Assembly (NCBI RefSeq): GCF_036507355.1
Contig: NZ_AP027877.1
DNA length: 64,000 nucleotides
Strand: one strand, 5' to 3'
DNA from: Escherichia coli
Lineage (GTDB): Bacteria > Pseudomonadota > Gammaproteobacteria > Enterobacterales > Enterobacteriaceae
Both the position numbers and the translations under genes were made by a program. Below are positions 4,341-64,000 of this stretch, piece after piece. The notes under the pieces were generated by a model, which was not told the DNA's origin, did not search any database, and was given only the letters and a program-made list of their open reading frames with translations. Position 1 is the first letter of the stretch; every line of letters starts with the position of its first letter.

Positions 4341-5369
4341 ATGGCGCATATTGTAACCCTAAATACCCCATCCAGAGAAGATTGGTTAACGCAACTTGCC
4401 GATGTTGTGACCGATCCTGATGAACTTCTGCGTCTTTTGAATATAGACGCGGACGAAAAACTGTTGGCCGGACGCAGCGCCAAAAAGCTGTTTGCCCTGC
4501 GTGTGCCCCGCTCATTTATCGATCGCATGGAGAAAGGCAATCCGGACGATCCTCTTTTGCGTCAGGTACTTACCTCGCAAGATGAGTTTGTCGTCGCACC
4601 CGGATTCTCCACCGACCCACTGGAAGAACAGCACAGCGTAGTGCCTGGTTTGTTGCATAAATACCACAACCGGGCGCTTTTGCTGGTCAAAGGCGGCTGC
4701 GCGGTAAATTGCCGCTATTGCTTCCGTCGTCACTTCCCTTATGCCGAAAATCAGGGCAACAAGCGTAACTGGCAAACTGCACTTGAGTATGTTGCTGCGC
4801 ATCCGGAACTGGACGAGATGATTTTCTCCGGCGGCGATCCGCTGATGGCGAAAGATCACGAGCTGGACTGGTTGCTCACACAACTGGAAGCCATCCCGCA
4901 TATCAAACGTCTGCGGATTCACAGTCGTCTGCCGATTGTGATCCCGGCACGCATCACAGATGCGCTGGTTGAACGCTTTTCACATTCTACGCTGCAAATC
5001 TTGCTGGTGAATCACATCAACCATGCCAATGAGATAGATGAAACATTCCGTCAGGCGATGGCTAAGTTGCGCCGGGTAGGCGTTACTTTGCTGAACCAGA
5101 GCGTTCTGTTACGTGGTGTGAACGATAACGCACAAACGCTGGCAAACCTGAGTAATGCGTTGTTCGATGCCGGCGTAATGCCGTATTACCTGCATGTGCT
5201 CGATAAAGTACAGGGCGCGGCGCATTTTATGGTGAGTGATGACGAAGCACGGCAGATTATGCGTGAGTTGCTGACACTGGTATCGGGATATCTGGTGCCG
5301 AAACTGGCGCGAGAAATTGGCGGCGAACCCAGCAAAACGCCGCTGGATCTCCAGCTACGCCAGCAGTAA
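4341..5369 (+). CDS. epmB: EF-P beta-lysylation enzyme EpmB (lysine 2,3-aminomutase family, 342 aa)
   Basis: Track ORF 4341..5369; radical-SAM CxxxCxxC motif (CAVNCRYC); divergent from efp as in E. coli. Confidence 0.95.
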   Translation: MAHIVTLNTPSREDWLTQLADVVTDPDELLRLLNIDADEKLLAGRSAKKLFALRVPRSFIDRMEKGNPDDPLLRQVLTSQDEFVVAPGFSTDPLEEQHSVVPGLLHKYHNRALLLVKGGCAVNCRYCFRRHFPYAENQGNKRNWQTALEYVAAHPELDEMIFSGGDPLMAKDHELDWLLTQLEAIPHIKRLRIHSRLPIVIPARITDALVERFSHSTLQILLVNHINHANEIDETFRQAMAKLRRVGVTLLNQSVLLRGVNDNAQTLANLSNALFDAGVMPYYLHVLDKVQGAAHFMVSDDEARQIMRELLTLVSGYLVPKLAREIGGEPSKTPLDLQLRQQ

Positions 5370-5400: not shown

Positions 5401-5502
<102 letters not shown>

Positions 5503-5617: not shown

Positions 5618-5626
5618 CACCAATAA
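5618..5626. repeat. Left copy of IS1 target-site duplication (CACCAATAA)
   Basis: 9-bp sequence immediately left of the IS1 end, identical to 6395-6403. Confidence 0.9.
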
Positions 5627-5681
5627 GGTGATGCTGCCAACTTACTGATTTAGTGTATGATGGTGTTTTTGAGGTGCTCCA

Positions 5682-5957
5682 GTGGCTTCTGTTTCTATCA
5701 GCTGTCCCTCCTGTTCAGCTACTGACGGGGTGGTGCGTAACGGCAAAAGCACCGCCGGACATCAGCGCTATCTCTGCTCTCACTGCCGTAAAACATGGCA
5801 ACTGCAGTTCACTTACACCGCTTCTCAACCCGGTACGCACCAGAAAATCATTGATATGGCCATGAATGGCGTTGGATGCCGGGCAACAGCCCGCATTATG
5901 GGCATTGGCCTCAACACGATTTTACGTCACTTAAAAAACTCAGGCCGCAGTCGGTAA
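5682..5957 (+). CDS. insA: IS1 InsA (91 aa; GTG start)
   Basis: Track ORF 5682..5957; [40 protein letters not shown]... zinc-finger InsA. Confidence 0.9.
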
Positions 5958-6379
5958 CCTCGCGCATACAGCCGGGCAGTGACGTCATCGTCTGCGCGGA
6001 AATGGACGAACAGTGGGGCTATGTCGGGGCTAAATCGCGCCAGCGCTGGCTGTTTTACGCGTATGACAGGCTCCGGAAGACGGTTGTTGCGCACGTATTC
6101 GGTGAACGCACGATGGCGACGCTGGGGCGTCTTATGAGCCTGCTGTCACCCTTTGACGTGGTGATATGGATGACGGATGGCTGGCCGCTGTATGAATCCC
6201 GCCTGAAGGGAAAGCTGCACGTAATCAGCAAGCGATATACGCAGCGAATTGAGCGGCATAACCTGAATCTGAGGCAGCACCTGGCACGGCTGGGACGGAA
6301 GTCGCTGTCGTTCTCAAAATCGGTGGAGCTGCATGACAAAGTCATCGGGCATTATCTGAACATAAAACACTATCAATAA
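5876..6379 (+). CDS. insB: IS1 InsB reading frame (transposase made as InsAB' by -1 frameshift at the A6C motif near 5934-5940)
   Basis: Track ORF 5876..6379 in the -1 frame relative to insA; AAAAAAC slippery run in the overlap; C-terminal sequence typical of IS1 InsB. Confidence 0.85.
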
Positions 6380-6394
6380 GTTGGAGTCATTACC

Positions 6395-6403
6395 CACCAA
6401 TAA
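6395..6403. repeat. Right copy of IS1 target-site duplication (CACCAATAA)
   Basis: Identical 9-mer directly abutting the right IS1 end. Confidence 0.9.
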
Positions 6404-6540
6404 TTAACCTTTCTTTTCTGTTTATATAGAGTGAGTACGGCTATTTATGTTATTTTAACAACTATTACTACCAAGCCCATTTATCTGGCTTATAAATTAA
6501 AATTAATTATTTAATTGAGAAATGGTTAGGGAGAACCTAC

Positions 6541-7410
6541 ATGGCCATAAGCATCAAGGGTGTTAATACCGGTGTTATTCGCAAGAGTAATAATTTCATT
6601 GCACTGGCGCTGAAAATTAAAGAACCTCGCAATAAAGAATCGTTGTTCTTTATGTCTGTCATGGAACTGCGCGACCTGCTGATTGCGCTGGAAAGTCGTC
6701 TGCATCAAAAGCATAAACTGGATGCTGCTGCACGCCTTCAGTATGAGCAAGCTCGCGATAAAGTCATTAAGAAAATGGCAGAAAACATCCCAGAAATTCT
6801 GGTTGATGAGCTTAAAAATGCCGATATTAATCGTCGGGTTAACACGCTGGAACTTACCGATAATCAAGGCGAAAATCTTACCTTCGTATTAACGCTACAT
6901 GACGGTAGCAAATGTGAGTTAGTCGTCAATGAATTGCAGATTGAAATGCTGGCGCGAGCAATCATTCATGCAATTAATAATGCAGAAATGCGCGAACTGG
7001 CATTACGTATTACCTCACTGTTAGATTTCCTGCCGTTATACGACGTTGACTGCCAGGAAAATGGCAATCTGGAATATGACACCTATTCCCAACCGGAATG
7101 GAAACATAACTTGTTCGACCATTATCTGGCGGTGCTTTACCGCTTTAAAGATGAAAGTGGCAAAGAACAATTTAGCGGCGCAGTGGTGAAAACGCGTGAA
7201 GCAACGCCGGGTAAAGAAATAGAGGCGATCACTCGCCGAATGCTTGATTTCAGCCCACGACTGAAAAAACTCGTGGGTGTGCCATGTCAGGTCTATGTTC
7301 GCACCGTAGCGGCGAATAACGCCCAACCGCTAACCCAGGATCAATGCTTACGCGCGCTGCATCACTTACGTGTTCAATCCACCAGCAAAACTGCACCACA
7401 GGCGAAATAA
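6541..7410 (+). CDS. yjeJ: Uncharacterised protein YjeJ (289 aa)
   Basis: Track ORF 6541..7410; sequence recognised as E. coli YjeJ; visibly AT-rich relative to its neighbours. Confidence 0.85.
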   Translation: MAISIKGVNTGVIRKSNNFIALALKIKEPRNKESLFFMSVMELRDLLIALESRLHQKHKLDAAARLQYEQARDKVIKKMAENIPEILVDELKNADINRRVNTLELTDNQGENLTFVLTLHDGSKCELVVNELQIEMLARAIIHAINNAEMRELALRITSLLDFLPLYDVDCQENGNLEYDTYSQPEWKHNLFDHYLAVLYRFKDESGKEQFSGAVVKTREATPGKEIEAITRRMLDFSPRLKKLVGVPCQVYVRTVAANNAQPLTQDQCLRALHHLRVQSTSKTAPQAK

Positions 7411-7478: not shown

Positions 7479-7580
<102 letters not shown>

Positions 7581-7602
7581 TTATACGTTTGTCACCATCA
7601 CA

Positions 7603-7956
7603 TCAGTTCGGGCACTTATAAACCTGACCGATAATCTGGCTATCCGTCGGGACAAAACTGGACAACATTCCCTGCGACGGGCTGCTGATGCCATAAATCA
7701 CGTTACCGCCCATTGCAGCCGCCTGGTTGCGCAGATCGTTTGCTGCGCCGCGCATAGAACCGCCTTCTTCTCCGTGTTGCCCGGAAAGCCAGTTGCTTTG
7801 CTTACCTGTCGCAGTACCAATCAGCTGGCACTCTGCGCCTGGCTGCTCGTCCACAATGCGTACACTCTGACCGGCAGCACTCAATTCGTTGCTGGAGCTA
7901 CAACCCGCCATCAGTAGCGCGGCACCGACAATCCCTGCTAAGTATTTTACGTGCAT
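7603..7956 (-). CDS. yjeI: Putative lipoprotein YjeI (117 aa)
   Basis: Within track ORF 7603..7989(-); start placed at MHVKYLAGIVGAALLMAGCSS (lipobox LMAGC). Confidence 0.85.
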   Translation of the reverse strand: MHVKYLAGIVGAALLMAGCSSSNELSAAGQSVRIVDEQPGAECQLIGTATGKQSNWLSGQHGEEGGSMRGAANDLRNQAAAMGGNVIYGISSPSQGMLSSFVPTDSQIIGQVYKCPN

Positions 7957-18839: not shown

Positions 18840-20378
18840 ATGCAACAACCTGTAGTTCGCGTTGGCGAATGGCTTGTTACTCCGTCCATAAACCAAATTA
18901 GCCGCAATGGGCGTCAACTTACCCTTGAGCCGAGATTAATCGATCTTCTGGTTTTCTTTGCTCAACACAGTGGCGAAGTACTTAGCAGGGATGAACTTAT
19001 CGATAATGTCTGGAAGAGAAGTATTGTCACCAATCACGTTGTGACGCAGAGTATCTCAGAACTACGTAAGTCATTAAAAGATAATGATGAAGATAGTCCT
19101 GTCTATATCGCTACTGTACCAAAGCGCGGCTATAAATTAATGGTGCCGGTTATCTGGCACAGCGAAGAAGAGGGAGAGGAAATAATGCTATCTTCGCCTC
19201 CCCCTATACCAGAGGCGGTTCCTGCCACAGATTCTCCCTCCCACAGTCTTAACATTCAAAACACCGCAACGCCACCTGAACAATCCCCAGTTAAAAGCAA
19301 ACGATTCACTACCTTTTGGGTATGGTTTTTTTTCCTGTTGTCCTTAGGTATCTGTGTAGCACTGGTAGCGTTTTCAAGTCTTGATACACGTCTTCCGATG
19401 AGCAAATCGCGTATTTTGCTCAATCCACGCGATATTGACATTAATATGGTAAATAAAAGTTGTAACAGCTGGAGTTCCCCGTATCAGCTCTCTTACGCGA
19501 TAGGCGTGGGTGATTTGGTGGCGACATCACTTAACACCTTCTCCACCTTTATGGTGCATGACAAAATCAACTACAACATTGATGAACCGAGCAGTTCCGG
19601 TAAAACATTATCTATTGCGTTTGTTAATCAGCGCCAATACCGTGCTCAACAATGCTTTATGTCGATAAAATTGGTAGACAATGCAGATGGTTCAACCATG
19701 CTGGATAAACGTTATGTCATCACTAACGGTAATCAGCTGGCGATTCAAAATGATTTACTGGAGAGTTTATCAAAAGCGTTAAACCAACCGTGGCCACAAC
19801 GAATGCAGGAGACGCTCCAGCAAATTTTGCCTCATCGTGGTGCGTTATTAACTAATTTTTATCAGGCACATGATTATTTACTGCATGGCGATGATAAATC
19901 ATTGAACCGTGCCAGTGAATTATTAGGTGAGATTGTTCAATCATCTCCAGAATTTACCTACGCGAGAGCAGAAAAAGCATTAGTTGATATCGTGCGCCAT
20001 TCTCAACATCCTTTAGATGAAAAACAATTAGCAGCACTGAACACAGAAATAGATAACATTGTTACACTACCGGAATTGAATAACTTGTCCATTATATATC
20101 AAATAAAAGCGGTCAGTGCTCTGGTAAAAGGTAAAACAGATGAGTCTTACCAGGCGATAAATACTGGCATTGATCTTGAAATGTCCTGGCTAAATTATGT
20201 ATTGCTTGGCAAGGTTTATGAAATGAAGGGGATGAACCGGGAAGCGGCTGATGCATATCTCACCGCCTTTAATTTACGCCCAGGGGCAAACACCCTTTAC
20301 TGGATTGAAAATGGTATATTCCAGACTTCTGTTCCTTATGTTGTACCTTATCTCGACAAATTTCTCGCTTCAGAATAA
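18840..20378 (+). CDS. cadC: ToxR-like membrane-integrated transcriptional activator CadC (512 aa)
   Basis: Track ORF 18840..20378; N-terminal winged-helix DNA-binding domain, single TM segment (FWVWFFFLLSLGICVALVAF), periplasmic sensor domain. Confidence 0.97.
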   Translation: MQQPVVRVGEWLVTPSINQISRNGRQLTLEPRLIDLLVFFAQHSGEVLSRDELIDNVWKRSIVTNHVVTQSISELRKSLKDNDEDSPVYIATVPKRGYKLMVPVIWHSEEEGEEIMLSSPPPIPEAVPATDSPSHSLNIQNTATPPEQSPVKSKRFTTFWVWFFFLLSLGICVALVAFSSLDTRLPMSKSRILLNPRDIDINMVNKSCNSWSSPYQLSYAIGVGDLVATSLNTFSTFMVHDKINYNIDEPSSSGKTLSIAFVNQRQYRAQQCFMSIKLVDNADGSTMLDKRYVITNGNQLAIQNDLLESLSKALNQPWPQRMQETLQQILPHRGALLTNFYQAHDYLLHGDDKSLNRASELLGEIVQSSPEFTYARAEKALVDIVRHSQHPLDEKQLAALNTEIDNIVTLPELNNLSIIYQIKAVSALVKGKTDESYQAINTGIDLEMSWLNYVLLGKVYEMKGMNREAADAYLTAFNLRPGANTLYWIENGIFQTSVPYVVPYLDKFLASE

Positions 20379-42845: not shown

Positions 42846-43607
42846 ATGAGGATTTGCAGCGACCAACCTTGTATTGTTTTATTGACTGAAAAAGATGTCT
42901 GGATAAGGGTGAATGGGAAAGAACCTATTAGCCTTAAAGCTAACCATATGGCGTTATTAAATTGTGAAAATAATATTATCGACGTCTCCTCTCTTAACAA
43001 CACTTTGGTTGCTCATATTAGTCACGACATCATCAAAGATTACCTCCGGTTTCTGAATAAAGATCTCTCGCAAATACCAGTATGGCAACGTAGCGCTACG
43101 CCCATCCTCACCCTGCCATGCCTGACGCCAGACGTCTTTCGCGTTGCCGCGCAACACAGCATGATGCCCGCAGAAACTGAGTCAGAAAAGGAGCGAACAC
43201 GCGCATTATTATTCACGGTGCTATCCCGTTTTCTCGACAGTAAAAAATTCCTTTCATTAATGATGTATATGTTACGTAATTGTGTAAGTGACAGCGTTTA
43301 TCAAATTATTGAAAGCGATATTCACAAAGACTGGAATCTTAGTATGGTAGCCAGTTGTTTATGTCTTAGCCCAAGTCTGTTAAAGAAAAAGCTGAAAAGC
43401 GAAAACACCAGTTATAGCCAAATAATCACCACCTGCCGCATGCGTTATGCCGTAAATGAATTAATGATGGACGGTAAAAATATCTCCCAGGTATCACAGT
43501 CCTGCGGCTACAACAGTACGTCGTACTTTATTTCTGTCTTTAAAGACTTCTACGGTATGACGCCGCTGCATTATGTTAGTCAGCACAGAGAACGCACTGT
43601 CGCCTGA
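42846..43607 (+). CDS. adiY: AraC-family regulator AdiY (253 aa)
   Basis: Track ORF 42846..43607; C-terminal AraC HTH; located between adiA and adiC. Confidence 0.93.
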   Translation: MRICSDQPCIVLLTEKDVWIRVNGKEPISLKANHMALLNCENNIIDVSSLNNTLVAHISHDIIKDYLRFLNKDLSQIPVWQRSATPILTLPCLTPDVFRVAAQHSMMPAETESEKERTRALLFTVLSRFLDSKKFLSLMMYMLRNCVSDSVYQIIESDIHKDWNLSMVASCLCLSPSLLKKKLKSENTSYSQIITTCRMRYAVNELMMDGKNISQVSQSCGYNSTSYFISVFKDFYGMTPLHYVSQHRERTVA

Positions 43608-55183: not shown

Positions 55184-55972
55184 ATGCAAACGATTATCCG
55201 TGTCGAGAAGCTCGCCAAAACCTTCAATCAGCATCAGGCGCTGCATGCGGTTGATCTGAACATTCATCACGGTGAAATGGTGGCTCTGCTTGGGCCGTCG
55301 GGTTCCGGCAAATCCACCCTTTTACGTCACTTAAGCGGCCTGATTGTCGGCGATAAAAAACCAGAATGCCGCGTCGAACTGCTGGGCCGTACCGTCCAGC
55401 AAAATGGCCGTCTGGCCCGCGATATCCGCAAAAGCCGCGCCCATACCGGCTACATCTTCCAACAATTCAACCTGGTGAATCGCCTGAGCGTACTGGAGAA
55501 CGTGCTGATTGGCGCGCTCGGCAGCACGCCGTTCTGGCGCACCTGTTTTAGCTACTTCACCCGCGAGCAGAAACAGCGCGCGTTACAGGCGCTGACCCGC
55601 GTTGGCATGGTGCATTTTGCCCATCAACGCGTTTCCACCCTCTCCGGCGGCCAGCAGCAGCGTGTGGCGATTGCCCGCGCGCTGATGCAGCAGGCGAAAG
55701 TGATTCTCGCAGACGAACCGATCGCCTCGCTGGACCCGGAATCGGCGCGCATCGTGATGGACACCCTGCGCGACATCAACCAGAACGACGGCATCACCGT
55801 GGTCGTCACGCTGCATCAGGTGGATTACGCCCTGCGCTACTGCGAGCGCATCGTCGCCCTGCGTCAGGGGCACGTCTTCTACGACGGCAGCAGCCAACAG
55901 TTTGATAACGAACGTTTTGACCATCTCTACCGCAGCATTAACCGCGTCGAAGAGAACGCGAAAGCTGCCTGA
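55184..55972 (+). CDS. phnC: Phosphonate ABC transporter ATP-binding protein PhnC (262 aa)
   Basis: Track ORF 55184..55972; Walker [10 protein letters not shown], signature LSGGQQQR. Confidence 0.95.
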
Positions 55973-55996
55973 CATCCCCATCATTGAGGAAAACGA

Positions 55997-57013
55997 ATGA
56001 ACGCTAAGATAATTGCCTCGCTGGCCTTCACCAGCATGTTCAGCCTCAGCACCCTGTTTAGCCCGGCGCACGCCGAGGAGCAGGAAAAGGCGCTGAATTT
56101 CGGCATTATTTCAACGGAATCACAGCAAAACCTGAAACCGCAATGGACGCCGTTTTTACAGGATATGGAGAAGAAGCTGGGCGTGAAGGTCAACGCCTTC
56201 TTTGCCCCGGACTACGCGGGCATTATCCAGGGAATGCGTTTCAACAAAGTGGATATCGCCTGGTACGGCAACCTGTCGGCGATGGAAGCAGTGGATCGCG
56301 CCAACGGTCAGGTCTTCGCTCAGACCGTCGCGGCGGATGGATCGCCGGGTTACTGGAGCGTGTTAATCGTCAACAAAGACAGCCCGATCAACAACCTGAG
56401 CGATCTGCTGGCGAAGCGGAAAGATCTCACCTTCGGCAATGGCGATCCTAACTCCACCTCTGGCTTCCTCGTCCCCGGCTACTACGTCTTCGCCAAAAAC
56501 AATATCTCCGCCAGCGACTTCAAGCGCACCGTCAACGCCGGGTATGAAACCAACGCGCTGGCCGTCGCCAACAAGCAGGTGGATGTGGCGACCAACAACA
56601 CCGAAAACCTCGACAAGCTGAAAACCTCCGCACCGGACAAGCTCAAAGAACTGAAAGTGATCTGGAAGTCGCCGCTGATCCCAGGCGATCCGATCGTCTG
56701 GCGCAAGAATCTTTCCGAAACCACCAAAGACAAGATCTACGACTTCTTTATGAACTACGGCAAAACGCCGGAAGAAAAAGCGGTGCTGGAACGCCTGGGC
56801 TGGGCGCCGTTCCGCGCTTCCAGCGACCTGCAACTGGTGTCGATTCGCCAGCTCGCGCTGTTTAAAGAGATGCAGGGCGTGAAAAGCAATAAAGGACTGA
56901 ATGAGCAGGACAAGCTGGCAAAAACCACCGAGATTCAGGCGCAGCTGGATGACCTGGACCGCCTGAACAACGCGCTAAGCGCGATGAGTTCGGTGAGTAA
57001 AGCGGTGCAGTAA
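55997..57013 (+). CDS. phnD: Phosphonate ABC transporter periplasmic binding protein PhnD (338 aa)
   Basis: Track ORF 55997..57013; signal peptide then binding-protein fold. Confidence 0.95.
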   Translation: MNAKIIASLAFTSMFSLSTLFSPAHAEEQEKALNFGIISTESQQNLKPQWTPFLQDMEKKLGVKVNAFFAPDYAGIIQGMRFNKVDIAWYGNLSAMEAVDRANGQVFAQTVAADGSPGYWSVLIVNKDSPINNLSDLLAKRKDLTFGNGDPNSTSGFLVPGYYVFAKNNISASDFKRTVNAGYETNALAVANKQVDVATNNTENLDKLKTSAPDKLKELKVIWKSPLIPGDPIVWRKNLSETTKDKIYDFFMNYGKTPEEKAVLERLGWAPFRASSDLQLVSIRQLALFKEMQGVKSNKGLNEQDKLAKTTEIQAQLDDLDRLNNALSAMSSVSKAVQ

Positions 57014-57015
57014 AT

Positions 57016-57105
57016 CGTAGGTCGGATAAGACGCCCCGGCGTCGCATCCGACAATGTGCAGGCGTTGATGCCGGATGCGGTGCAAGCACCTTATCCGGCC
57101 TACAG
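57016..57105. repeat. REP/BIME element
   Basis: GTAGGTCGGATAAGACGCCCCGGCGTCGCATCCGACA ... GATGCCGGATGCGGTGCAAGCACCTTATCCGGCCTAC; boundaries approximate. Confidence 0.65.
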
Positions 57106-57118
57106 ACCGGAGCCAAAC

Positions 57119-57898
57119 ATGCAAACCATCACCATCGCCCCACCCAAGCGCAGCTGGTTCTCGCTTCTGAGCTGGGCCGTTGTTCTCGCCGTGTTGGTCG
57201 TCTCGTGGCAGGGCGCGGAAATGGCCCCGCTCACGCTGATTAAAGACGGCGGCAACATGGCGACTTTCGCCGCCGACTTCTTCCCGCCTGATTTCAGCCA
57301 GTGGCAGGATTACCTCACCGAAATGGCCGTCACGCTGCAAATCGCCGTCTGGGGCACCGCGCTGGCGGTGGTTCTCTCCATCCCCTTCGGCCTGATGAGC
57401 GCCGAAAACCTGGTGCCGTGGTGGGTTTACCAGCCCGTTCGCCGCCTGATGGACGCCTGCCGCGCCATTAACGAAATGGTCTTCGCCATGCTGTTCGTGG
57501 TCGCCGTCGGCCTCGGCCCGTTCGCTGGCGTGTTGGCGCTGTTTATCCACACCACCGGCGTGCTCTCCAAACTGCTTTCCGAAGCGGTGGAAGCGATTGA
57601 ACCCGGCCCGGTGGAAGGCATTCGCGCGACCGGCGCTAACAAGCTCGAAGAGATCCTCTACGGCGTGCTGCCGCAGGTGATGCCGCTGCTGATCTCCTAC
57701 TCCCTCTATCGCTTCGAATCCAACGTCCGCTCGGCGACCGTCGTCGGCATGGTCGGCGCGGGCGGGATCGGCGTCACGCTGTGGGAAGCGATTCGCGGTT
57801 TCCAGTTCCAGCAAACCTGCGCCCTGATGGTGCTCATCATCGTCACGGTCAGCCTGCTGGATTTCCTCTCTCAACGGTTGCGTAAGCACTTTATCTGA
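57119..57898 (+). CDS. phnE: Phosphonate ABC transporter permease PhnE, uninterrupted (259 aa)
   Basis: Within track ORF 57056..57898 (upstream part is REP read-through); start ATG 57119 ([28 protein letters not shown]...); continuous single frame. Confidence 0.9.
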
Positions 57899-57918
57899 TT
57901 AGCGAGGCATTGATAGCT

Positions 57919-58644
57919 ATGCACTTGTCTACACATCCGACCAGCTACCCAACACGCTATCAGGAGATAGCCGCAAAACTTGAGCAGGAGCTTCGTCAAC
58001 ACTACCGCTGCGGCGACTATCTTCCCGCCGAGCAGCAGCTGGCGGCGCGCTTTGAGGTAAACCGCCACACCCTGCGCCGCGCCATCGACCAACTGGTGGA
58101 AAAAGGCTGGGTACAGCGCCGTCAGGGCGTCGGCGTGCTGGTGCTGATGCGCCCGTTCGATTACCCGCTCAACGCCCAGGCGCGTTTTAGCCAGAATCTG
58201 CTGGATCAGGGCAGCCATCCCACCAGCGAAAAACTGCTGTCGGTGCTGCGCCCGGCGTCTGGTCACGTCGCTGACGCGCTGGGGATAACCGAGGGGGAGA
58301 ACGTCATCCACCTGCGCACCCTGCGCCGGGTCAACGGCGTCGCGCTCTGTTTAATCGACCACTACTTTGCGGACCTCACCCTCTGGCCGACGCTGCAACG
58401 CTTCGACAGCGGTTCGCTGCACGATTTTCTGCGCGAGCAAACGGGAATTGCGCTGCGCCGCAGCCAGACGCGGATCAGCGCCCGCCGCGCCCAAGCCAAA
58501 GAGTGCCAGCGCCTTGAAATCCCGAATATGTCGCCGCTGCTGTGCGTGCGCACCCTTAACCACCGTGACGGTGAAAGCAGCCCGGCGGAGTATTCCGTCA
58601 GCCTGACGCGCGCCGACATGATTGAATTCACTATGGAGCACTGA
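57919..58644 (+). CDS. phnF: GntR-family repressor PhnF (241 aa)
   Basis: Within track ORF 57910..58644; start placed at MHLSTHPTSYPTRYQEIAAKL...; N-terminal GntR HTH, UTRA-like C-domain. Confidence 0.93.
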   Translation: MHLSTHPTSYPTRYQEIAAKLEQELRQHYRCGDYLPAEQQLAARFEVNRHTLRRAIDQLVEKGWVQRRQGVGVLVLMRPFDYPLNAQARFSQNLLDQGSHPTSEKLLSVLRPASGHVADALGITEGENVIHLRTLRRVNGVALCLIDHYFADLTLWPTLQRFDSGSLHDFLREQTGIALRRSQTRISARRAQAKECQRLEIPNMSPLLCVRTLNHRDGESSPAEYSVSLTRADMIEFTMEH

Positions 58645-59097
58645 ATGCACGCAGATACCGCGACCCGCCAGCACTGGATGTCCGTGCTGGCGCACAGCCA
58701 ACCGACTGAGCTGGCAGCCCGCCTGAACGCGCTGAACATCACCGCCGACTATGAAGTGATCCGCACCGCCGAAACTGGTCTGGTGCAGATTCAGGCGCGG
58801 ATGGGCGGCACCGGCGAACGCTTTTTTGCCGGCGACGCCACGCTCACCCGCGCCGCCGTACGCCTGACTGACGGCACGCTCGGCTACAGCTGGGTGCTGG
58901 GGCGCGACAAACAGCACGCCGAACGCTGCGCGCTGATTGACGCGCTGATGCAGCAATCTCGCCACTTTCAAAACTTATCAGAAACTCTTATTGCCCCGCT
59001 GGACGCTGACCGTATGGCACGCATTGCCGCACGCCAGGCCGAAGTGAACGCCAGCCGGGTCGACTTCTTTACGATGGTTCGCGGAGACAACGCATGA
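58645..59097 (+). CDS. phnG: C-P lyase core complex subunit PhnG (150 aa)
   Basis: Track ORF 58645..59097; recognised PhnG sequence. Confidence 0.95.
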
Positions 59098-59678
59098 CCC
59101 TGGAAACCGCTTTTATGCTTCCCGTGCAGGATGCCCAGCACAGTTTTCGTCGCCTGTTAAAGGCCATGAGCGAGCCGGGCGTGATTGTCGCCCTGCATCA
59201 GCTCAAACGCGGCTGGCAGCCGCTGAATATCGCCACCACCAGCGTGCTGCTGACGCTGGCTGATAACGACACGCCGGTGTGGCTTGCCGCGCCATTAAGT
59301 AACGATATCGTCAGCCAGAGCCTGCGTTTTCATACCAACGCGCCGCTGGTCAATCAACCGGAACAGGCGACCTTCGCGGTGACGGATGAGACGATTTCCA
59401 GCGAACAGCTCAACGCCCTTTCCACCGGCACCGCCGTTGCGCCAGAAGCGGGCGCGACGCTGATTTTACAGGTCGCCAGCCTGAGCGGCGGGCGCATGTT
59501 GCGCCTCACCGGTGCGGGTATTGCCGAAGAACGAATGATCGCTCCGCAGCTGCCGGAGTGCATTTTGCACGAACTCACCGAGCGCCCGCACCCGTTCCCG
59601 CTCGGCATCGACCTGATCCTGACCTGCGGCGAGCGCCTGCTGGCTGTTCCGCGAACCACTCATGTGGAGGTGTGCTGA
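59094..59678 (+). CDS. phnH: C-P lyase core complex subunit PhnH (194 aa)
   Basis: Track ORF 59094..59678; 4-bp overlap with phnG. Confidence 0.95.
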
Positions 59679-60742
59679 TGTACGTTGCCGTGAAAGGGGG
59701 CGAGAAGGCGATCGACGCCGCCCACGCCCTGCAAGAGAGCCGACGCCGGGGCGATACCGATTTGCCCGAACTGAGCGTCGCCCAGATTGAACAGCAGCTT
59801 AACCTCGCGGTAGATCGCGTGATGACCGAAGGCGGCATTGCCGACCGCGAACTGGCGGCGCTGGCGCTGAAACAGGCCAGCGGCGATAACGTCGAAGCGA
59901 TTTTTCTGCTGCGCGCCTACCGCACCACGCTGGCGAAGCTGGCGGTGAGCGAACCGCTCGACACCACCGGGATGCGTCTCGAACGGCGTATCTCCGCTGT
60001 TTATAAAGATATTCCCGGCGGCCAACTGCTTGGCCCAACCTACGACTACACCCATCGCCTGCTCGATTTCACCCTGCTGGCAAACGGCGAAGCGCCAACG
60101 CTGACCACCGCCGACAGCGAACAACAGCCGTCGCCGCACGTTTTCAGCCTGCTTGCGCGTCAGGGGCTGGCGAAGTTTGAAGAGGATAGCGGCGCACAGC
60201 CGGATGACATCACCCGCACGCCGCCGGTTTACCCCTGCTCACGTTCTTCCCGTTTGCAGCAGTTGATGCGCGGCGACGAAGGCTATTTGCTGGCGCTGGC
60301 CTACTCCACCCAACGCGGTTACGGGCGCAATCACCCGTTCGCGGGTGAAATCCGCAGTGGTTACATCGACGTGTCGATTGTGCCGGAAGAGCTGGGATTT
60401 GCGGTAAACGTCGGCGAACTGCTGATGACCGAGTGTGAAATGGTCAACGGTTTTATCGATCCGCCGGATGAACCACCGCATTTTACACGCGGCTACGGGC
60501 TGGTGTTCGGCATGAGCGAGCGCAAAGCGATGGCAATGGCGCTAGTCGATCGTGCGTTGCAGGCCCCGGAGTACGGCGAGCACGCGACAGGCCCGGCGCA
60601 GGATGAAGAGTTCGTGCTGGCGCATGCCGACAACGTCGAAGCCGCAGGCTTTGTCTCGCACCTCAAACTCCCGCACTACGTCGATTTCCAGGCCGAACTG
60701 GAGCTACTCAAACGTCTGCAACAGGAGCAGAACCATGGCTAA
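59678..60742 (+). CDS. phnI: C-P lyase core complex subunit PhnI (354 aa)
   Basis: Within track ORF 59558..60742; start ATG 59678 ([32 protein letters not shown]...); 1-bp overlap with the phnH stop. Confidence 0.95.
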   Translation: MYVAVKGGEKAIDAAHALQESRRRGDTDLPELSVAQIEQQLNLAVDRVMTEGGIADRELAALALKQASGDNVEAIFLLRAYRTTLAKLAVSEPLDTTGMRLERRISAVYKDIPGGQLLGPTYDYTHRLLDFTLLANGEAPTLTTADSEQQPSPHVFSLLARQGLAKFEEDSGAQPDDITRTPPVYPCSRSSRLQQLMRGDEGYLLALAYSTQRGYGRNHPFAGEIRSGYIDVSIVPEELGFAVNVGELLMTECEMVNGFIDPPDEPPHFTRGYGLVFGMSERKAMAMALVDRALQAPEYGEHATGPAQDEEFVLAHADNVEAAGFVSHLKLPHYVDFQAELELLKRLQQEQNHG

Positions 60743-61580
60743 TCTGAGCGGCTACAACTTTGCCTACCTCGACGAGCAGACCAAACGCATGATCCGCCGC
60801 GCCATCTTAAAAGCGGTGGCGATCCCCGGTTATCAGGTGCCGTTTGGCGGGCGCGAGATGCCGATGCCGTACGGCTGGGGAACCGGCGGCATACAGCTTA
60901 CCGCCAGCGTGATTGGCGAAAGCGACGTACTGAAGGTGATTGACCAGGGAGCGGATGACACCACCAACGCCGTGTCGATTCGCAACTTCTTCAAGCGCGT
61001 GACCGGGGTAAACACCACGGAACGTACGGACGATGCGACGGTTATCCAGACGCGTCACCGCATCCCCGAAACGCCGCTGACCGAAGATCAGATCATTATT
61101 TTCCAGGTGCCGATCCCCGAACCGCTGCGCTTTATCGAGCCGCGCGAAACGGAAACCCGCACCATGCACGCGCTGGAGGAGTACGGCGTGATGCAGGTGA
61201 AACTGTATGAAGATATCGCCCGCTTCGGTCATATCGCCACCACCTACGCCTATCCGGTGAAGGTGAACGGGCGCTACGTGATGGACCCGTCGCCGATCCC
61301 GAAATTCGATAACCCGAAAATGGACATGATGCCTGCCCTGCAGCTGTTCGGCGCGGGGCGCGAAAAGCGCATCTATGCGGTGCCACCGTTTACCCGCGTT
61401 GAAAGTCTCGATTTCGAGGATCACCCGTTCACCGTTCAGCAGTGGGATGAGCCATGCGCCATCTGCGGATCGACCCACAGCTATCTCGATGAAGTGGTGC
61501 TGGATGACGCCGGAAACCGCATGTTTGTCTGCTCCGATACCGATTATTGCCGCCAACAGAGCGAGGCAAAAAGCCAATGA
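60735..61580 (+). CDS. phnJ: Alpha-D-ribose 1-methylphosphonate 5-phosphate C-P lyase PhnJ (281 aa)
   Basis: Within track ORF 60552..61580; start ATG 60735 (MANLSGYNFAYLDEQTKRMIRRAILKAVAIPGYQVPFGGREMPMPYGWGTGG...); C-terminal Cys cluster CAICGS...CSDTDYC for the 4Fe-4S site. Confidence 0.95.
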   Translation: MANLSGYNFAYLDEQTKRMIRRAILKAVAIPGYQVPFGGREMPMPYGWGTGGIQLTASVIGESDVLKVIDQGADDTTNAVSIRNFFKRVTGVNTTERTDDATVIQTRHRIPETPLTEDQIIIFQVPIPEPLRFIEPRETETRTMHALEEYGVMQVKLYEDIARFGHIATTYAYPVKVNGRYVMDPSPIPKFDNPKMDMMPALQLFGAGREKRIYAVPPFTRVESLDFEDHPFTVQQWDEPCAICGSTHSYLDEVVLDDAGNRMFVCSDTDYCRQQSEAKSQ

Positions 61581-62335
61581 ATCAACCGTTACTTTCGGTC
61601 AATAACCTGACCCACCTTTACGCGCCGGGCAAAGGCTTTAGCGATGTCTCTTTTGATTTATGGCCGGGGGAAGTGCTGGGCATTGTCGGGGAGTCCGGCT
61701 CCGGGAAGACCACGCTGCTGAAATCAATCTCCGCGCGCCTGACGCCGCAGCAGGGGGAAATTCACTACGAGAACCGTTCGCTGTATGCAATGAGCGAGGC
61801 CGACCGCCGTCGCCTGCTGCGCACCGAATGGGGCGTGGTGCATCAGCATCCGCTCGACGGCCTGCGCCGCCAGGTCTCAGCAGGCGGCAACATCGGCGAG
61901 CGGCTGATGGCGACCGGGGCGCGTCATTACGGCGATATTCGCGCCACCGCGCAGAAGTGGCTGGAAGAGGTGGAAATTCCCGCCAACCGGATCGACGACC
62001 TGCCGACCACCTTTTCCGGCGGCATGCAGCAACGTTTGCAGATTGCCCGCAACCTGGTGACGCATCCGAAGCTGGTATTTATGGACGAGCCAACCGGCGG
62101 GCTGGATGTGTCGGTGCAGGCCCGCCTGCTCGACCTGCTGCGCGGCCTGGTGGTGGAGCTGAACCTGGCGGTGGTTATTGTCACCCATGATTTAGGCGTC
62201 GCCCGCCTGCTGGCGGACCGTTTGCTGGTGATGAAGCAGGGGCAAGTGGTGGAGAGTGGGTTAACCGACCGCGTGCTCGACGACCCGCATCATCCGTATA
62301 CACAGCTGCTGGTGTCATCGGTTTTGCAGAATTGA
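61577..62335 (+). CDS. phnK: C-P lyase-associated ATP-binding protein PhnK (252 aa)
   Basis: Within track ORF 61547..62335; start ATG 61577 ([15 protein letters not shown]...); Walker [10 protein letters not shown]. Confidence 0.95.
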
Positions 62336-62338
62336 GCC

Positions 62339-62425
62339 GGTGCCGGATGCGGCGTAAACGCCTTATCCTGCCTACAAATGCGCTCCCCGTAGGTCGGATA
62401 AGACGCGTCAGCGTCGCATCCGACA
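62339..62425. repeat. REP/BIME element
   Basis: GCCGGATGCGGCGTAAACGCCTTATCCTGCCTAC ... GTAGGTCGGATAAGACGCGTCAGCGTCGCATCCGACA; boundaries approximate. Confidence 0.65.
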
Positions 62426-62445
62426 CCCGAACCACGAGGCGAAAA

Positions 62446-63126
62446 ATGATTAACGTACAAAACGTCAGTAAAACCTTCATCCTGCACCAGCAAAACGGCG
62501 TGCGCCTGCCCGTCCTCAACCGCGCCTCGCTCACCGTCAACGCGGGCGAATGCGTGGTGCTCCACGGCCATTCCGGCAGCGGAAAATCAACCCTGCTACG
62601 CTCGCTGTACGCCAACTATCTGCCCGACGAAGGGCAAATCCAGATCAAACACGGTGACGAATGGGTCGATCTGGTCACCGCGCCAGCGCGCAAAGTGGTG
62701 GAGATCCGCAAAACCACCGTTGGCTGGGTGAGCCAGTTTCTGCGCGTCATCCCGCGCATTTCGGCGCTGGAAGTGGTGATGCAGCCGCTACTCGATACCG
62801 GCGTACCACGTGAAGCCTGCGCCGCTAAAGCCGCGCGTCTTCTCACCCGCCTGAACGTGCCGGAACGCCTGTGGCACCTGGCTCCATCGACCTTCTCCGG
62901 CGGCGAACAGCAGCGCGTCAACATCGCCCGCGGCTTTATCGTCGACTACCCCATTCTGCTGCTCGACGAACCTACCGCCTCGCTGGACGCCAAAAACAGC
63001 GCCGCGGTGGTGGAACTGATTCACGAAGCCAAAGCCCGTGGCGCAGCCATTGTCGGCATCTTCCATGACGAAGCCGTACGTAATGACGTTGCCGACCGCC
63101 TGCACCCAATGGGAGCCTCTTCATGA
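62446..63126 (+). CDS. phnL: C-P lyase-associated ATP-binding protein PhnL (226 aa)
   Basis: Within track ORF 62332..63126 (upstream part is REP read-through); start ATG 62446 ([25 protein letters not shown]...); Walker [10 protein letters not shown]. Confidence 0.95.
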
Positions 63127-64000
63127 TTATCAATAACGTCAAATTGGTGCTGGAAAACGAAGTGGTACACGGTTCACTGGAGGTGCAGGACGGCGAAATC
63201 CGCGCCTTTGCCGAAAGCCAGAGCCGCCTGCCGGAGGCGATGGACGGCGAAGGCGGCTGGCTGCTGCCGGGGCTGATTGAGCTGCATACCGATAATCTGG
63301 ATAAATTCTTCACCCCGCGCCCGAAAGTTGACTGGCCTGCCCACTCGGCGATGAGCAGCCACGACGCGCTGATGGTGGCGAGCGGCATCACCACCGTACT
63401 GGATGCCGTGGCAATTGGCGACGTGCGCGACGGCGGCGATCGGCTGGAGAATCTTGAGAAGATGATCAACGCCATCGAAGAGACGCAGAAACGCGGCGTC
63501 AACCGCGCCGAGCACCGTCTACACCTGCGCTGCGAACTGCCGCATCACACCACGCTGCCGCTGTTTGAAAAACTGGTGCAGCGCGAGCCGGTGACGCTGG
63601 TGTCGCTGATGGACCACTCGCCGGGCCAGCGCCAGTTCGCCAATCGCGAGAAGTATCGCGAATATTATCAGGGTAAATACTCGCTCACTGATGCGCAGAT
63701 GCAGCAGTACGAAGAAGAGCAACTGGCGCTCGCCGCACGCTGGTCGCAGCCGAATCGCGAATCCATCGCCGCCCTGTGCCGCGCGCGACACATTGCGCTT
63801 GCCAGCCACGATGACGCCACCCACGCCCACGTTGCCGAATCCCACCAGCTTGGCAGCGTGATCGCCGAATTTCCCACCACGTTCGAAGCGGCAGAAGCCT
63901 CGCGCAAGCATGGCATGAACGTGTTGATGGGCGCGCCGAATATCGTGCGCGGCGGTTCGCACTCCGGCAACGTGGCGGCCAGTGAACTGGCACAGCTTGG
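63123..64000 (+). CDS. phnM: Ribosyl-triphosphate diphosphohydrolase PhnM, N-terminal part (continues beyond window end)
   Basis: ATG 63123 overlaps the phnL stop (ATGA); [63 protein letters not shown]... amidohydrolase-family N-terminus; no stop before 64000. Confidence 0.93.

What the first reader, a model, noticed from the sequence alone, without database searches (positions are those of the whole stretch)
6541..7410. yjeJ: AT-rich gene of unknown function bracketed by IS1 and REP elements
yjeJ (289 aa) is noticeably more AT-rich than the flanking core genes (groEL, epmB) and sits between an IS1 copy and REP elements. That is the kind of setting where horizontally acquired, H-NS-silenced genes reside. 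The protein looks like a coiled-coil-rich protein with no assigned function, so it is one of the few genuinely uncharacterised loci in the window. This is an impression from reading, not a computed statistic.
Basis: inference. Interest (0 to 1): 0.3.

Follow-up and report, generated by a model that had tools for sequence, protein, structure and literature searches.

The report
yjeJ: orphan of a microcin operon
yjeJ is a real, conserved and expressed E. coli gene of unknown function; its relatives in Klebsiella and other bacteria are the last gene of an operon that makes and exports a small antibacterial peptide, so the lone E. coli copy may be a leftover self-protection gene.

Summary
A 289-codon ORF lies at 6541-7410 (+). 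Its GC is 45.1% against 50.9% for the window. An IS1 lies upstream and REP elements lie downstream.

- The IS1 is a clean, strain-specific insertion with its own 9-bp duplication.
- yjeJ is present in 5425 of 5426 complete E. coli genomes.
- It occupies the same epmB/yjeI-groESL slot in 43 species-level genomes.
- dN/dS within Escherichia is 0.04-0.13, and codon adaptation is average for the window.
- It has a mapped sigma-70 promoter, and the protein is detected by proteomics.
- The AlphaFold model (pLDDT 93) is a two-domain alpha/beta protein, not a coiled coil.

The new result concerns its relatives. All ten divergent YjeJ homologues with readable context lie 12-30 bp downstream of an operon made of double-glycine-leader microcin gene(s), a HlyD adaptor and a C39-peptidase ABC exporter. 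In K. pneumoniae this island fills exactly the slot where E. coli keeps only yjeJ.

YjeJ diverges as fast as the microcin (35% vs 38% mean identity), while the exporter genes stay at 68-77%. No canonical small membrane immunity gene is present in these operons.

Best reading: yjeJ is an orphaned gene of a microcin operon, probably a non-canonical cytoplasmic immunity factor. The function is inferred, not shown.

The parts
6541..7410 (+). yjeJ coding sequence (289 aa plus stop). The N-terminal half (about residues 1-150) has beta4-alpha-linker-beta3-alpha topology. The C-terminal alpha/beta domain (about 156-285) carries the family's most conserved motifs: LDFLPLYD 161-168, W187-K188 and GAVVKT 213-218.
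   Evidence: ORF. Pfam PF15922 full length. Alignment A2, with W187 and K217 invariant. AlphaFold2 models. dN/dS 0.04-0.13 within Escherichia.
6404..6432 (+). yjeJ sigma-70 promoter: -35 TTAACC (6404-6409), 17-nt spacer, -10 TAGAGT (6427-6432).
   Evidence: The sequence is identical to the constitutive RpoD promoter listed for the epmB-yjeJ spacer by genomic SELEX (PMC3946193). It was located in the window. The consensus scanner did not pick it up.
5627..6394 (+). IS1 copy (768 bp, transposase frames on the + strand). It is inserted in the epmB-yjeJ spacer, and its right-hand target duplication ends 1 bp before the -35 hexamer. It is secondary to the yjeJ locus, not part of it.
   Evidence: Terminal inverted repeats and length. 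E. coli records annotate the matching DNA as an IS1 family transposase. Only 25 of 5426 genomes have IS1 in this neighbourhood.
5618..5626 (.). Left copy of the 9-bp IS1 target-site duplication, CACCAATAA.
   Evidence: Identical to 6395-6403.
6395..6403 (.). Right copy of the 9-bp IS1 target-site duplication, CACCAATAA.
   Evidence: Excising IS1 plus one copy gives a 394-bp spacer that is 376/394 identical to an IS-free Escherichia locus (L002).
7480..7583 (.). Pair of inverted REP elements (a BIME) between the convergent genes yjeJ and yjeI.
   Evidence: Inverted repeats. The REP core CTTATCMGGCCTAC occurs 12 times in the window against 0.01 expected.
5417..5480 (.). Second pair of inverted REPs just downstream of epmB, separating epmB from the yjeJ promoter region.
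4341..5369 (+). epmB, the left border of the conserved slot. In K. pneumoniae the fimbria-plus-microcin island begins after this gene.
   Evidence: tblastn synteny. Annotations.
7603..7956 (-). yjeI (DUF4156 lipoprotein-like gene), the right border of the slot. It is adjacent to yjeJ both in orphan loci and in microcin-operon loci.
   Evidence: Pfam DUF4156. Synteny.

Best explanation
yjeJ is a vertically inherited, expressed, selectively maintained chromosomal gene. It is the orphaned last gene of an ancestral class II microcin operon.

In relatives the operon reads: one or two microcin precursor genes, then a HlyD-type adaptor (MFP), then a C39-peptidase ABC exporter (PCAT), then YjeJ. The precursors are 101-122 aa. 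Each has a double-glycine leader MKELxVxEMxxxSG(G/A), a Gly-rich hydrophobic core and a DG(T/S)FxPW tail.

In K. pneumoniae this operon, together with a chaperone-usher fimbrial operon, fills the epmB/yjeI slot. In the Escherichia, Citrobacter, Kluyvera, Trabulsiella, Kosakonia and Pluralibacter lineages everything except yjeJ has been lost, and yjeJ runs from its own promoter.

Most likely mechanism (inferred): YjeJ is a soluble cytoplasmic self-protection (immunity) factor that neutralises this family of Gly-rich microcins. E. coli would then retain it as an orphan immunity gene against producers such as Klebsiella.

What is shown: the gene, its conservation, the selection on it, the fold model, and the operon linkage in relatives. 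What is inferred: the direction of evolution (from the tree and from Budvicia) and the immunity function.

The IS1 next to it is a recent insertion into AT-rich DNA that leaves the core promoter intact.
For: Operon linkage:
- All 10 divergent family representatives with readable context have the PCAT gene ending 12-30 bp upstream of YjeJ. They are P0134, P0139, P0142, P0143, P0144, P0145, P0147, P0149, P0160 and P0182.
- On the contigs long enough to show them, an overlapping MFP gene and leader-bearing small ORFs precede the PCAT.
- Exporter identity is confirmed by Pfam (Peptidase_C39 + ABC_membrane + ABC_tran; HlyD) and by NCBIfam bacteriocin-export models. The exporter DNA also weakly matches E. 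coli cvaB/mchF.

Same chromosomal slot:
- The K. pneumoniae order is efp, epmB, wHTH regulator, fimbrial operon, two microcin genes, MFP, PCAT, yjeJ, yjeI, groL, groS.
- Budvicia carries the same island elsewhere in its chromosome.

Direction of evolution:
- In a neighbour-joining tree the epmB-adjacent orphan copies form one clade nested among PCAT-linked copies.

Evolutionary rate:
- Mean pairwise identity across 6 operons is 38% for the microcin core, 35% for YjeJ, 68% for MFP and 77% for PCAT.
- This matches the published rule that microcins and immunity proteins vary while exporters are conserved (PMC9746304).

Immunity candidates:
- No conserved small transmembrane ORF sits next to the microcin genes, so YjeJ is the only other conserved operon gene.
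- A non-membrane-type immunity protein has a precedent in A. baumannii McaB (PMC10333792).

Retention of the orphan:
- Present in 5425 of 5426 E. coli genomes and syntenic in 43 species-level genomes.
- dN/dS is 0.04-0.13.
- It is expressed.
- The operon is AT-rich, with MFP at 37-47% GC, matching the low GC of yjeJ.
Against: - No experiment links YjeJ to any microcin, and deleting yjeJ was used as a neutral marker (PMC10679819).
- Known class II microcin immunity proteins are 51-216 aa inner-membrane proteins encoded next to the microcin. YjeJ is about 285 aa, has no transmembrane helix, and lies at the far end of the operon.
- The antibacterial activity of these peptides is itself untested.
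- Strictly conserved motifs (LDFLPLYD, WK, GAVxKT) across orphan, operon-linked and plasmid copies suggest a conserved partner or catalytic site rather than a variable toxin-binding surface.
- Serratia plasmid homologues have no exporter nearby.
- The gene is decaying in Salmonella diarizonae and arizonae.
- The tree is a midpoint-rooted NJ tree without support values.
- The correlation of YjeJ divergence with microcin divergence is no better than with the exporters.
Confidence: 0.4

Rival explanations
1. YjeJ is a PUR/PC4/Whirly-like single-stranded nucleic-acid-binding protein. It would act as a regulator or nucleoid/plasmid-associated factor that happens to be carried by microcin operons and plasmids.
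For: - The N-terminal topology beta4-alpha-linker-beta3-alpha matches the 'type I PC4-like' description (PMC7549692).
- Foldseek's most probable hits are PURA structures (probability 0.72).
- Serratia plasmid copies sit among ParA, ArdR, SprT-like, H-NS, Hha and topoisomerase genes.
Against: - Foldseek finds nothing at E<=1e-3, and TM-scores are 0.37-0.43.
- No member gives even a weak Pfam hit to the PUR, Whirly or PC4 families.
- The family is acidic: median pI is 5.7, and the N-domain net charge is -3 to -9 in operon-linked members. That is unlike nucleic-acid-binding PC4-like domains.
- The islands carry their own wHTH regulator.
- YjeJ diverges as fast as the microcin.
Confidence: 0.15
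2. YjeJ is a cytoplasmic export or maturation accessory of the C39-ABC exporter. It could act as a chaperone that keeps the Gly-rich hydrophobic precursor soluble, or as a partner of the PCAT.
For: - Spacing to the PCAT gene is tight and conserved at 12-30 bp in 10 of 10 loci.
- Invariant motifs fit a conserved partner.
- The protein is acidic and soluble.
- The C-terminal domain gives weak matches to secretion-chaperone and longin-like folds, and one member gives a weak Pfam SycN hit.
Against: - A dedicated export helper has no obvious reason to persist for tens of millions of years under dN/dS of about 0.05 in dozens of species that lack both peptide and exporter, or on Serratia plasmids without an exporter.
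- Characterised class II microcin systems need only PCAT, MFP and TolC (PMC9746304).
Confidence: 0.2
3. One reading: yjeJ is a recently acquired, H-NS-silenced, coiled-coil gene sitting in a mobile-element-bracketed islet.
For: - The gene has lower GC than its neighbours, and the upstream spacer is very AT-rich.
- IS1 and REPs are physically adjacent.
- The family has an island ancestry.
Against: - The gene is core in E. coli and syntenic across many genera.
- Its GC tracks host GC across genera, for example 63% in Pluralibacter.
- Its CAI is average for the window.
- It is under purifying selection.
- IS1 has its own target duplication and is strain-specific.
- A promoter is mapped without an H-NS flag, and the protein is detected.
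- The fold is not coiled-coil.
Confidence: 0.05
4. The orphan copy has been co-opted for an unrelated housekeeping or stress role in E. coli, and the microcin-operon ancestry says nothing about its present function.
For: - The charge shifts from acidic (pI 5-6) in operon-linked copies to basic (pI 8.3-9.1) in Escherichia and Citrobacter.
- It has its own promoter, is reported as Nac-linked, and changes under nitrogen starvation.
- Its protein abundance changes in a tgt mutant.
- The slot next to groESL, epmB and efp is conserved.
Against: - No phenotype is known, and the deletion was used as a neutral marker.
- All family motifs are retained in the orphan clade.
- The gene was lost or pseudogenised in Salmonella.
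Confidence: 0.2

Closest known systems
Pfam PF15922 (YjeJ-like) / NCBI 'YjeJ family protein'
   Same: Full-length match at 578 bits against a 27-bit cut-off, so this protein is a member by definition.
   Different: The family carries no functional annotation. No paper in the searchable library links it to microcins, and the accession appears in none.
Class II microcin gene clusters (MccV cvi-cvaC-cvaA-cvaB; MccH47 mchI/B/E/F)
   Same: Relatives of yjeJ sit in operons with a double-glycine-leader peptide, a HlyD-type MFP and a C39 PCAT homologous to CvaB/MchF.
   Different: Canonical clusters have a small membrane immunity gene next to the microcin and no YjeJ-like gene. The clusters described here have YjeJ after the PCAT and no such small gene. 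E. coli itself has only the lone yjeJ.
Class II microcin immunity proteins (Cvi, MchI, MceB, McsI; A. baumannii McaB)
   Same: YjeJ is encoded in the microcin operon and diverges as fast as the microcin. McaB ('cupin-like') shows that immunity need not be a small membrane protein.
   Different: YjeJ is about 285 aa, soluble and acidic, and is not adjacent to the peptide gene. No protection assay exists for it.
PUR domain / PC4-like fold proteins (Pur-alpha, Bpur, Whirly, MRP1/2, PC4, YdbC)
   Different: There is no sequence-profile similarity, and Foldseek is not significant. The surface charge is acidic rather than basic. The extra C-terminal domain has no structural match.
Orphan bacteriocin/toxin immunity genes (a general phenomenon known for colicin, CDI, T6SS and Gram-positive bacteriocin loci; cited from general knowledge)
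   Same: It is a lone gene retained under selection after loss of the toxin and export genes, at a conserved site, with fast sequence divergence between lineages.
   Different: Immunity activity is not demonstrated, and species-wide fixation as a core gene is unusual for orphan immunity genes.

Membership tests
Pfam PF15922 YjeJ-like | Full-length HMM match above the gathering threshold | tested here: met
   E 4.2e-174, 578 bits against 27; residues 1-283 match profile positions 1-283 of 283.
PUR / PC4-like fold (type I, intramolecular) | [quoted passage not shown] | tested here: met
   AlphaFold2 secondary structure: E2-38 (4 strands), H40-58, helical linker 62-92, E99-130 (3 strands), H131-147. 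The second repeat has 3 strands rather than 4.
PUR / PC4-like fold (type I, intramolecular) | Significant structural superposition on solved members | tested here: inconclusive
PUR / PC4-like fold (type I, intramolecular) | Sequence-profile relationship to the PUR, Whirly or PC4 families | tested here: not met
   None of the 23 members hits those Pfam families even at E<=10. hhalign finds no internal repeat similarity.
PUR / PC4-like fold (type I, intramolecular) | Binds single-stranded DNA/RNA, which implies a basic binding surface | not testable with these tools
   Only a proxy is available: the N-domain median pI is 5.6, and its net charge is -3 to -9 in most members. That argues against binding.
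Class II microcin immunity protein | Encoded in the microcin/PCAT/MFP locus | tested here: met
   True for 10 of 10 divergent relatives with context. Not true for the window's own copy, which is an orphan.
Class II microcin immunity protein | Small (51-216 aa), immediately adjacent to the microcin gene, with inner-membrane transmembrane helices | tested here: not met
   YjeJ is 275-294 aa and lies after the PCAT. It has no transmembrane segment: the model is globular and the maximum 19-residue hydropathy is 0.8-1.8. The criteria come from PMC9746304 and PMC12219008.
Class II microcin immunity protein | Sequence as variable as the microcin, while the exporters are conserved | tested here: met
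   Mean identities are YjeJ 35%, microcin core 38%, MFP 68% and PCAT 77%.
Class II microcin immunity protein | Confers protection against the cognate microcin | not testable with these tools
   This needs self-inhibition or zone-of-inhibition assays.
Recently acquired, H-NS-silenced genomic islet | Sporadic distribution and borders defined by mobile elements | tested here: not met
   Present in 5425 of 5426 E. coli genomes. The same slot is occupied in 43 of 47 species loci. IS1 has its own target duplication and is strain-specific.
Recently acquired, H-NS-silenced genomic islet | Atypical base composition and codon usage | tested here: inconclusive
   GC and GC3 are low at z about -1.6, but the crude CAI sits at the window median. 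Ortholog GC tracks host GC.
Recently acquired, H-NS-silenced genomic islet | H-NS occupancy and silencing | not testable with these tools
   Only indirect evidence is available: there is no HNS flag for this spacer in the SELEX table that flags cadBA and adiA, and the protein is detected in LB.
Coiled-coil protein | Long heptad-repeat helices dominating the structure | tested here: not met
   The longest helices are about 20 residues (40-58, 62-81), and about 14 beta strands are present.

The most novel reading that the evidence does not exclude
YjeJ defines a new class of large, soluble, two-domain microcin immunity proteins, with a PC4/PUR-like N-domain and a novel C-domain. Published microcin pipelines miss it because they only consider candidates of <=250 aa with transmembrane helices. 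E. coli, Citrobacter and many other Enterobacteriaceae would then carry, as a core gene, an orphan immunity determinant against the Gly-rich microcins made by Klebsiella-clade gut co-residents.
Probability: 0.3. Interest if true: 0.75.

Novelty: new variant of a known kind. Interest (0 to 1): 0.55.

Why it matters
yjeJ is one of the remaining core E. coli genes with no function or phenotype. Tying it to a microcin export operon turns 'unknown' into one cheap, decisive experiment: measure microcin sensitivity with and without yjeJ.

If YjeJ is an immunity factor, three things follow:
- The definition of microcin immunity proteins would widen beyond small membrane proteins.
- It would reveal an uncharacterised microcin family that is widespread in Klebsiella.
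- It would point to a species-level determinant of competition between E. coli and Klebsiella in the gut.

If YjeJ is not an immunity factor, the locus is still a clean example of an island decaying to a single retained gene at a conserved chromosomal slot.

Tried and rejected
Searches and tests that found nothing:
- NCBIfam, PADLOC and PHROGs gave no informative hit, and PDB sequence search gave nothing below E 0.08.
- A profile search of the 5.8-billion-protein set with alignment A2 only re-listed Citrobacter and E. coli copies.
- Foldseek against PDB found no significant match. The afdb50 library was unavailable.
- No remnant of the exporter or microcin genes was found in the E. coli spacer or in other orphan loci by tblastn at E<=1e-3.
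- No E. coli complete genome carries the cluster.
- No conserved small transmembrane immunity ORF was found around the microcin genes.

Contexts that turned out unrelated:
- The 2-kb extra DNA in C. youngae encodes a DUF4132 protein, and the extra DNA in Kosakonia and Phytobacter encodes a chemoreceptor. Neither is related to the operon.

Technical problems:
- The first genome scan with the 23-sequence alignment failed for lack of a conserved stretch; it was repeated with 8 sequences.
- A strict REP pattern missed the local REPs because of spacing; the REP core pattern found them.
- No standard E. coli CAI table was available, so a crude CAI referenced to groESL plus efp was used.
- The supplement of PMC12219008 is not held.

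Literature:
- Literature on yjeJ gave only incidental mentions.
Full report
**1. The observation**

The window has an ATG-to-TAA ORF at 6541-7410 on the + strand encoding 289 aa. It matches Pfam PF15922 'YjeJ-like' end to end (E 4e-174). E. coli RefSeq records annotate the same DNA as 'yjeJ: YjeJ family protein'.

Its GC is 45.1% and its GC3 is 44.8%, against 50.9% for the whole window. That is the third-lowest GC and second-lowest GC3 among 48 ORFs, with z about -1.6. cadC (18840-20378) and an AraC-type regulator (42846-43607) are more AT-rich, both at 41.9%. A crude codon adaptation index, referenced to the window's groESL and efp, is 0.375 for yjeJ. That is the window median and slightly above epmB and yjeI. 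So the gene is AT-richer than its neighbours but not atypical in codon usage.

The local gene order is efp(-), epmB(+), IS1, yjeJ(+), yjeI(-), groL(-), groS(-).

**2. The mobile elements**

IS1 occupies 5627-6394. It is 768 bp long, has recognisable terminal inverted repeats, and is flanked by a perfect 9-bp duplication CACCAATAA at 5618-5626 and 6395-6403. Deleting IS1 and one duplicate copy gives a 394-bp spacer that is 376/394 identical to an IS-free Escherichia locus.

Only 25 of 5426 complete E. coli genomes have IS1 in this neighbourhood. The two I inspected have it at other positions: one about 60 bp upstream of the ATG, and one inside yjeJ. IS1 is therefore a recent, recurrent hit into very AT-rich DNA (28% GC for 6395-6540). 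It is not a border of an acquired segment.

Its right-hand duplication ends at 6403. The -35 hexamer of the yjeJ promoter starts at 6404 (TTAACC, 17 nt, TAGAGT). This is exactly the constitutive RpoD promoter listed for the epmB-yjeJ spacer by genomic SELEX (PMC3946193).

REP elements are real. An inverted pair lies at 7480-7583 between the convergent yjeJ and yjeI, and another pair lies at 5417-5480 after epmB. The REP core occurs 12 times in the window against 0.01 expected. These are ordinary E. coli intergenic repeats.

**3. Is it a recent foreign gene?**

No.
- yjeJ DNA is present once, on the chromosome, in 5425 of 5426 complete E. coli genomes. 5385 of them cover at least 80% of the query.
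- A scan of one genome per species found 47 loci. In 43 of them the homologue lies in the same place, efp< epmB> yjeJ> <yjeI <groL <groS. The genera are Escherichia, Citrobacter, Pseudocitrobacter, Kluyvera, Superficieibacter, Salmonella (diarizonae and arizonae), Trabulsiella, Yokenella, Intestinirhabdus, Kosakonia, Phytobacter and Pluralibacter.
- YjeJ identity falls to 40% while EpmB stays at >=83% and GroL at >=92%.
- Ortholog GC averages 7 points below epmB but follows host GC, for example 63% in Pluralibacter.
- Within Escherichia, dN/dS is 0.04-0.13.
- The gene is expressed. It has a mapped promoter with no H-NS flag in a table that does flag the cadBA and adiA spacers. The protein was quantified in LB cultures (PMC9508795), and it was reported among Nac-linked genes changing in nitrogen starvation (PMC7417836).
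- A yjeJ deletion was used as a neutral linked marker (PMC10679819).
- In Salmonella diarizonae the ORF is interrupted at codon 98, and in arizonae only part of it matches.

**4. The protein**

The family is small. Among 1.84 billion cluster representatives, 97 match at E <= 0.001, and about 25 of those are full length at 24-69% identity. The named members are all Enterobacterales.

Alignment A2 (23 sequences) shows invariant W187 and K217. It also shows the motifs G7-x-N9, LDFLPLYD (161-168), WK (187-188) and GAVxKT (213-218).

AlphaFold2 on A2 gives a confident model (pLDDT 93.1, pTM 0.88). It is not a coiled coil. It has an N-terminal half of four strands, a helix, a helical linker, three strands and a helix, followed by a C-terminal alpha/beta domain.

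The support for this fold assignment is limited:
- Foldseek finds nothing at E<=1e-3. PURA structures give its highest probabilities, but TM-scores are only 0.37-0.43.
- No member hits the PUR, Whirly or PC4 Pfam models even at E 10.
- The beta-alpha units show no mutual profile similarity.
- The family is acidic, with median pI 5.7 and an N-domain net charge of -3 to -9 in most members. Only the Escherichia and Citrobacter copies are basic. That argues against a generic nucleic-acid-binding role.

There is no signal peptide or membrane helix, as read from the sequence, the model and the hydropathy profile.

**5. The decisive context**

I looked up the contigs encoding the divergent representatives. 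In every case with readable context, the gene lies 12-30 bp downstream of a gene for a C39-peptidase ABC transporter. The ten representatives are:
- P0134 (Budvicia)
- P0139 (Entomohabitans)
- P0143 (K. pneumoniae)
- P0142, P0144, P0145, P0147, P0149, P0160 and P0182 (metagenomic)

On the contigs long enough to show them, the transporter gene overlaps by 4-11 bp a preceding HlyD-family adaptor gene. That in turn is preceded by one or two ORFs of 101-122 aa.

Those small ORFs all begin MKELxVxEMxxxSG(G/A), a textbook double-glycine leader. They continue with a Gly/Ala-rich hydrophobic core and end in DG(T/S)FxPW. One gives a sub-threshold match to Pfam Bacteriocin_IIc.

The transporter matches Peptidase_C39 + ABC_membrane + ABC_tran and NCBIfam bacteriocin-export models. 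Its DNA weakly matches E. coli cvaB and mchF. This is the architecture of a class II microcin system (PMC9746304), plus YjeJ.

The peptide family is widespread in Klebsiella species and Leclercia. It is annotated as hypothetical, and occasionally as 'Colicin V'.

**6. Same slot**

In K. pneumoniae the order is frdABCD, blc, sugE, ecnB, ecnA, efp, epmB, [wHTH regulator, fimbrial subunit, chaperone, usher, adhesin, microcin, microcin, MFP, PCAT, yjeJ], yjeI, groL, groS. The bracketed island of about 11.6 kb sits exactly where E. coli has only a 394-bp spacer plus yjeJ, and the right-hand junction is the same.

Budvicia has the usher, adhesin, microcin, MFP, PCAT and yjeJ unit at a different chromosomal place, so the unit moves as a block.

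In a neighbour-joining tree, all epmB-adjacent orphan copies form one clade nested among operon-linked copies. This favours loss of the rest of the island in an ancestor of the Escherichia-Citrobacter-Kluyvera-Kosakonia group, followed by vertical descent. The tree is midpoint-rooted and has no support values, so this step is inference.

No E. coli complete genome has the cluster, and no remnant is detectable in the spacer.

The slot is also a general insertion hot spot.

**7. What YjeJ does**

Across six complete operons, mean pairwise identity is 38% for the microcin core, 35% for YjeJ, 68% for the adaptor and 77% for the exporter. The microcin literature describes this split between fast toxin and immunity genes and slow export machinery.

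I found no conserved small membrane ORF beside the microcin genes. YjeJ is therefore the only other conserved gene of the operon.

A lone gene kept under purifying selection after loss of toxin and exporter is what an orphan immunity gene looks like. A dedicated export helper would have no reason to persist.

Non-canonical immunity has a precedent: the 'cupin-like' McaB of A. baumannii protects against Mcc17978 (PMC10333792). Published pipelines restrict immunity candidates to <=250 aa, usually with transmembrane helices. That would have hidden YjeJ.

Evidence against the immunity reading:
- YjeJ is large, soluble and distal in the operon.
- It has strictly conserved motifs that suggest a conserved partner or active site.
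- Serratia plasmids carry 24-26%-identical copies with no exporter, among ParA, ArdR, SprT-like, H-NS and Hha genes.
- The peptides' antibacterial activity is untested.

My confidence is about 0.85 that yjeJ is an orphan of this operon type, and about 0.35-0.4 that it is specifically an immunity or self-protection factor. The rivals are an export or maturation accessory, a PUR-like nucleic-acid binder, and a co-opted unrelated role.

**8. Novelty**

The gene and its Pfam family are known, but uncharacterised. No paper in the searchable library holds yjeJ together with microcin, and none holds the Pfam accession.

The operon linkage, the shared slot with the Klebsiella island and the fold model make a long-standing y-gene directly testable. 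As first described, the finding (an AT-rich gene bracketed by IS1 and REPs, possibly H-NS-silenced) is ordinary. What lies behind it is moderately interesting.

Noticed in passing
window 5417-5480: A second pair of inverted REP elements lies directly after the epmB stop codon, so REP pairs lie on both sides of the IS1-yjeJ unit. The REP core occurs 12 times in the window (other sites at 35.9, 54.4-54.5, 57.0-57.1 and 62.4 kb).
   Followed up: partly
window 6395-6432: The right-hand IS1 target duplication ends at 6403, and the mapped yjeJ -35 hexamer starts at 6404. The insertion replaces everything upstream of the core promoter, and the IS1 transposase frames point toward yjeJ. The effect on expression is unknown.
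   Followed up: partly
L048 and L049 (E. coli strains 4114 and MB06232): There are independent IS1 insertions at this locus in other strains. One lies about 60 bp upstream of the yjeJ ATG, and one inside yjeJ splits it into two pseudogene fragments.
   Followed up: yes
L006 4060-5778; L033 6968-8686 (also L035, L047): The epmB/yjeI slot collects unrelated insertions. C. youngae has a 572-aa DUF4132 gene between epmB and yjeJ. Kosakonia and Phytobacter have a methyl-accepting chemotaxis protein gene between yjeJ and yjeI.
   Followed up: partly
L022 (Salmonella enterica subsp. diarizonae) and L037 (subsp. arizonae): The yjeJ homologue is interrupted in diarizonae: the ORF from the start codon ends after 97 aa, although tblastn aligns residues 1-283. 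Only part of it aligns in arizonae. The gene seems to be decaying in Salmonella.
   Followed up: partly
window 18840-20378 and 42846-43607: cadC and an AraC-family regulator are both 41.9% GC, more AT-rich than yjeJ. The cadBA and adiA spacers are the ones flagged 'HNS' in the genomic SELEX table, where yjeJ is not.
   Followed up: partly
window 55184-63911: A run of ORFs has 59-63% GC and GC3 of 70-82%. This deviates from the window average far more than yjeJ does. Three of the ORFs are ABC-type ATPases by tblastn.
   Followed up: no
L052 (S. marcescens plasmid CP018921.1) and L065 (S. entomophila plasmid NZ_MT039145.1): Small Serratia plasmids (18-57 kb) carry YjeJ homologues at 24-26% identity. 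Each is preceded by a conserved ORF of about 100-109 aa and lies among ParA, ArdR anti-restriction, SprT-like, H-NS, Hha and topoisomerase genes. No exporter is nearby.
   Followed up: partly
L001, L013, L043; PLSDB hits H47, H52, H53, H57: Some public records look mislabelled or contaminated. Contigs assigned to Bacillus coahuilensis, a Bacteroidales MAG and Chryseobacterium sp. 18061 carry enterobacterial yjeJ loci. Several multi-megabase 'plasmids' are clearly chromosomes.
   Followed up: no
L064 3299-5409: In the operon encoding P0182 (an OprD porin gene lies downstream), the C39-ABC exporter is split into two ORFs of 164 and 538 aa. This is either a frameshifted, decaying operon or an assembly error.
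   Followed up: no
L050 1692-2492; L046 1473-2488: The microcin-like precursor gene is tandemly duplicated in K. pneumoniae (121 and 122 aa, 58% identical) and in Entomohabitans, where the second copy appears frameshifted. The peptide family is widespread in Klebsiella species but annotated as hypothetical.
   Followed up: partly
literature (PMC3229523): YjeJ is listed among the top 153 E. coli proteins bound by the antimicrobial peptide lactoferricin B on a proteome chip. This is a weak hint of peptide binding.
   Followed up: no
alignment A2: Operon-linked and plasmid YjeJ proteins are acidic (pI 5.0-6.1), while the Escherichia and Citrobacter orphan copies are basic (pI 8.3-9.1). This is a charge shift after orphaning, and its meaning is unknown.
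   Followed up: partly
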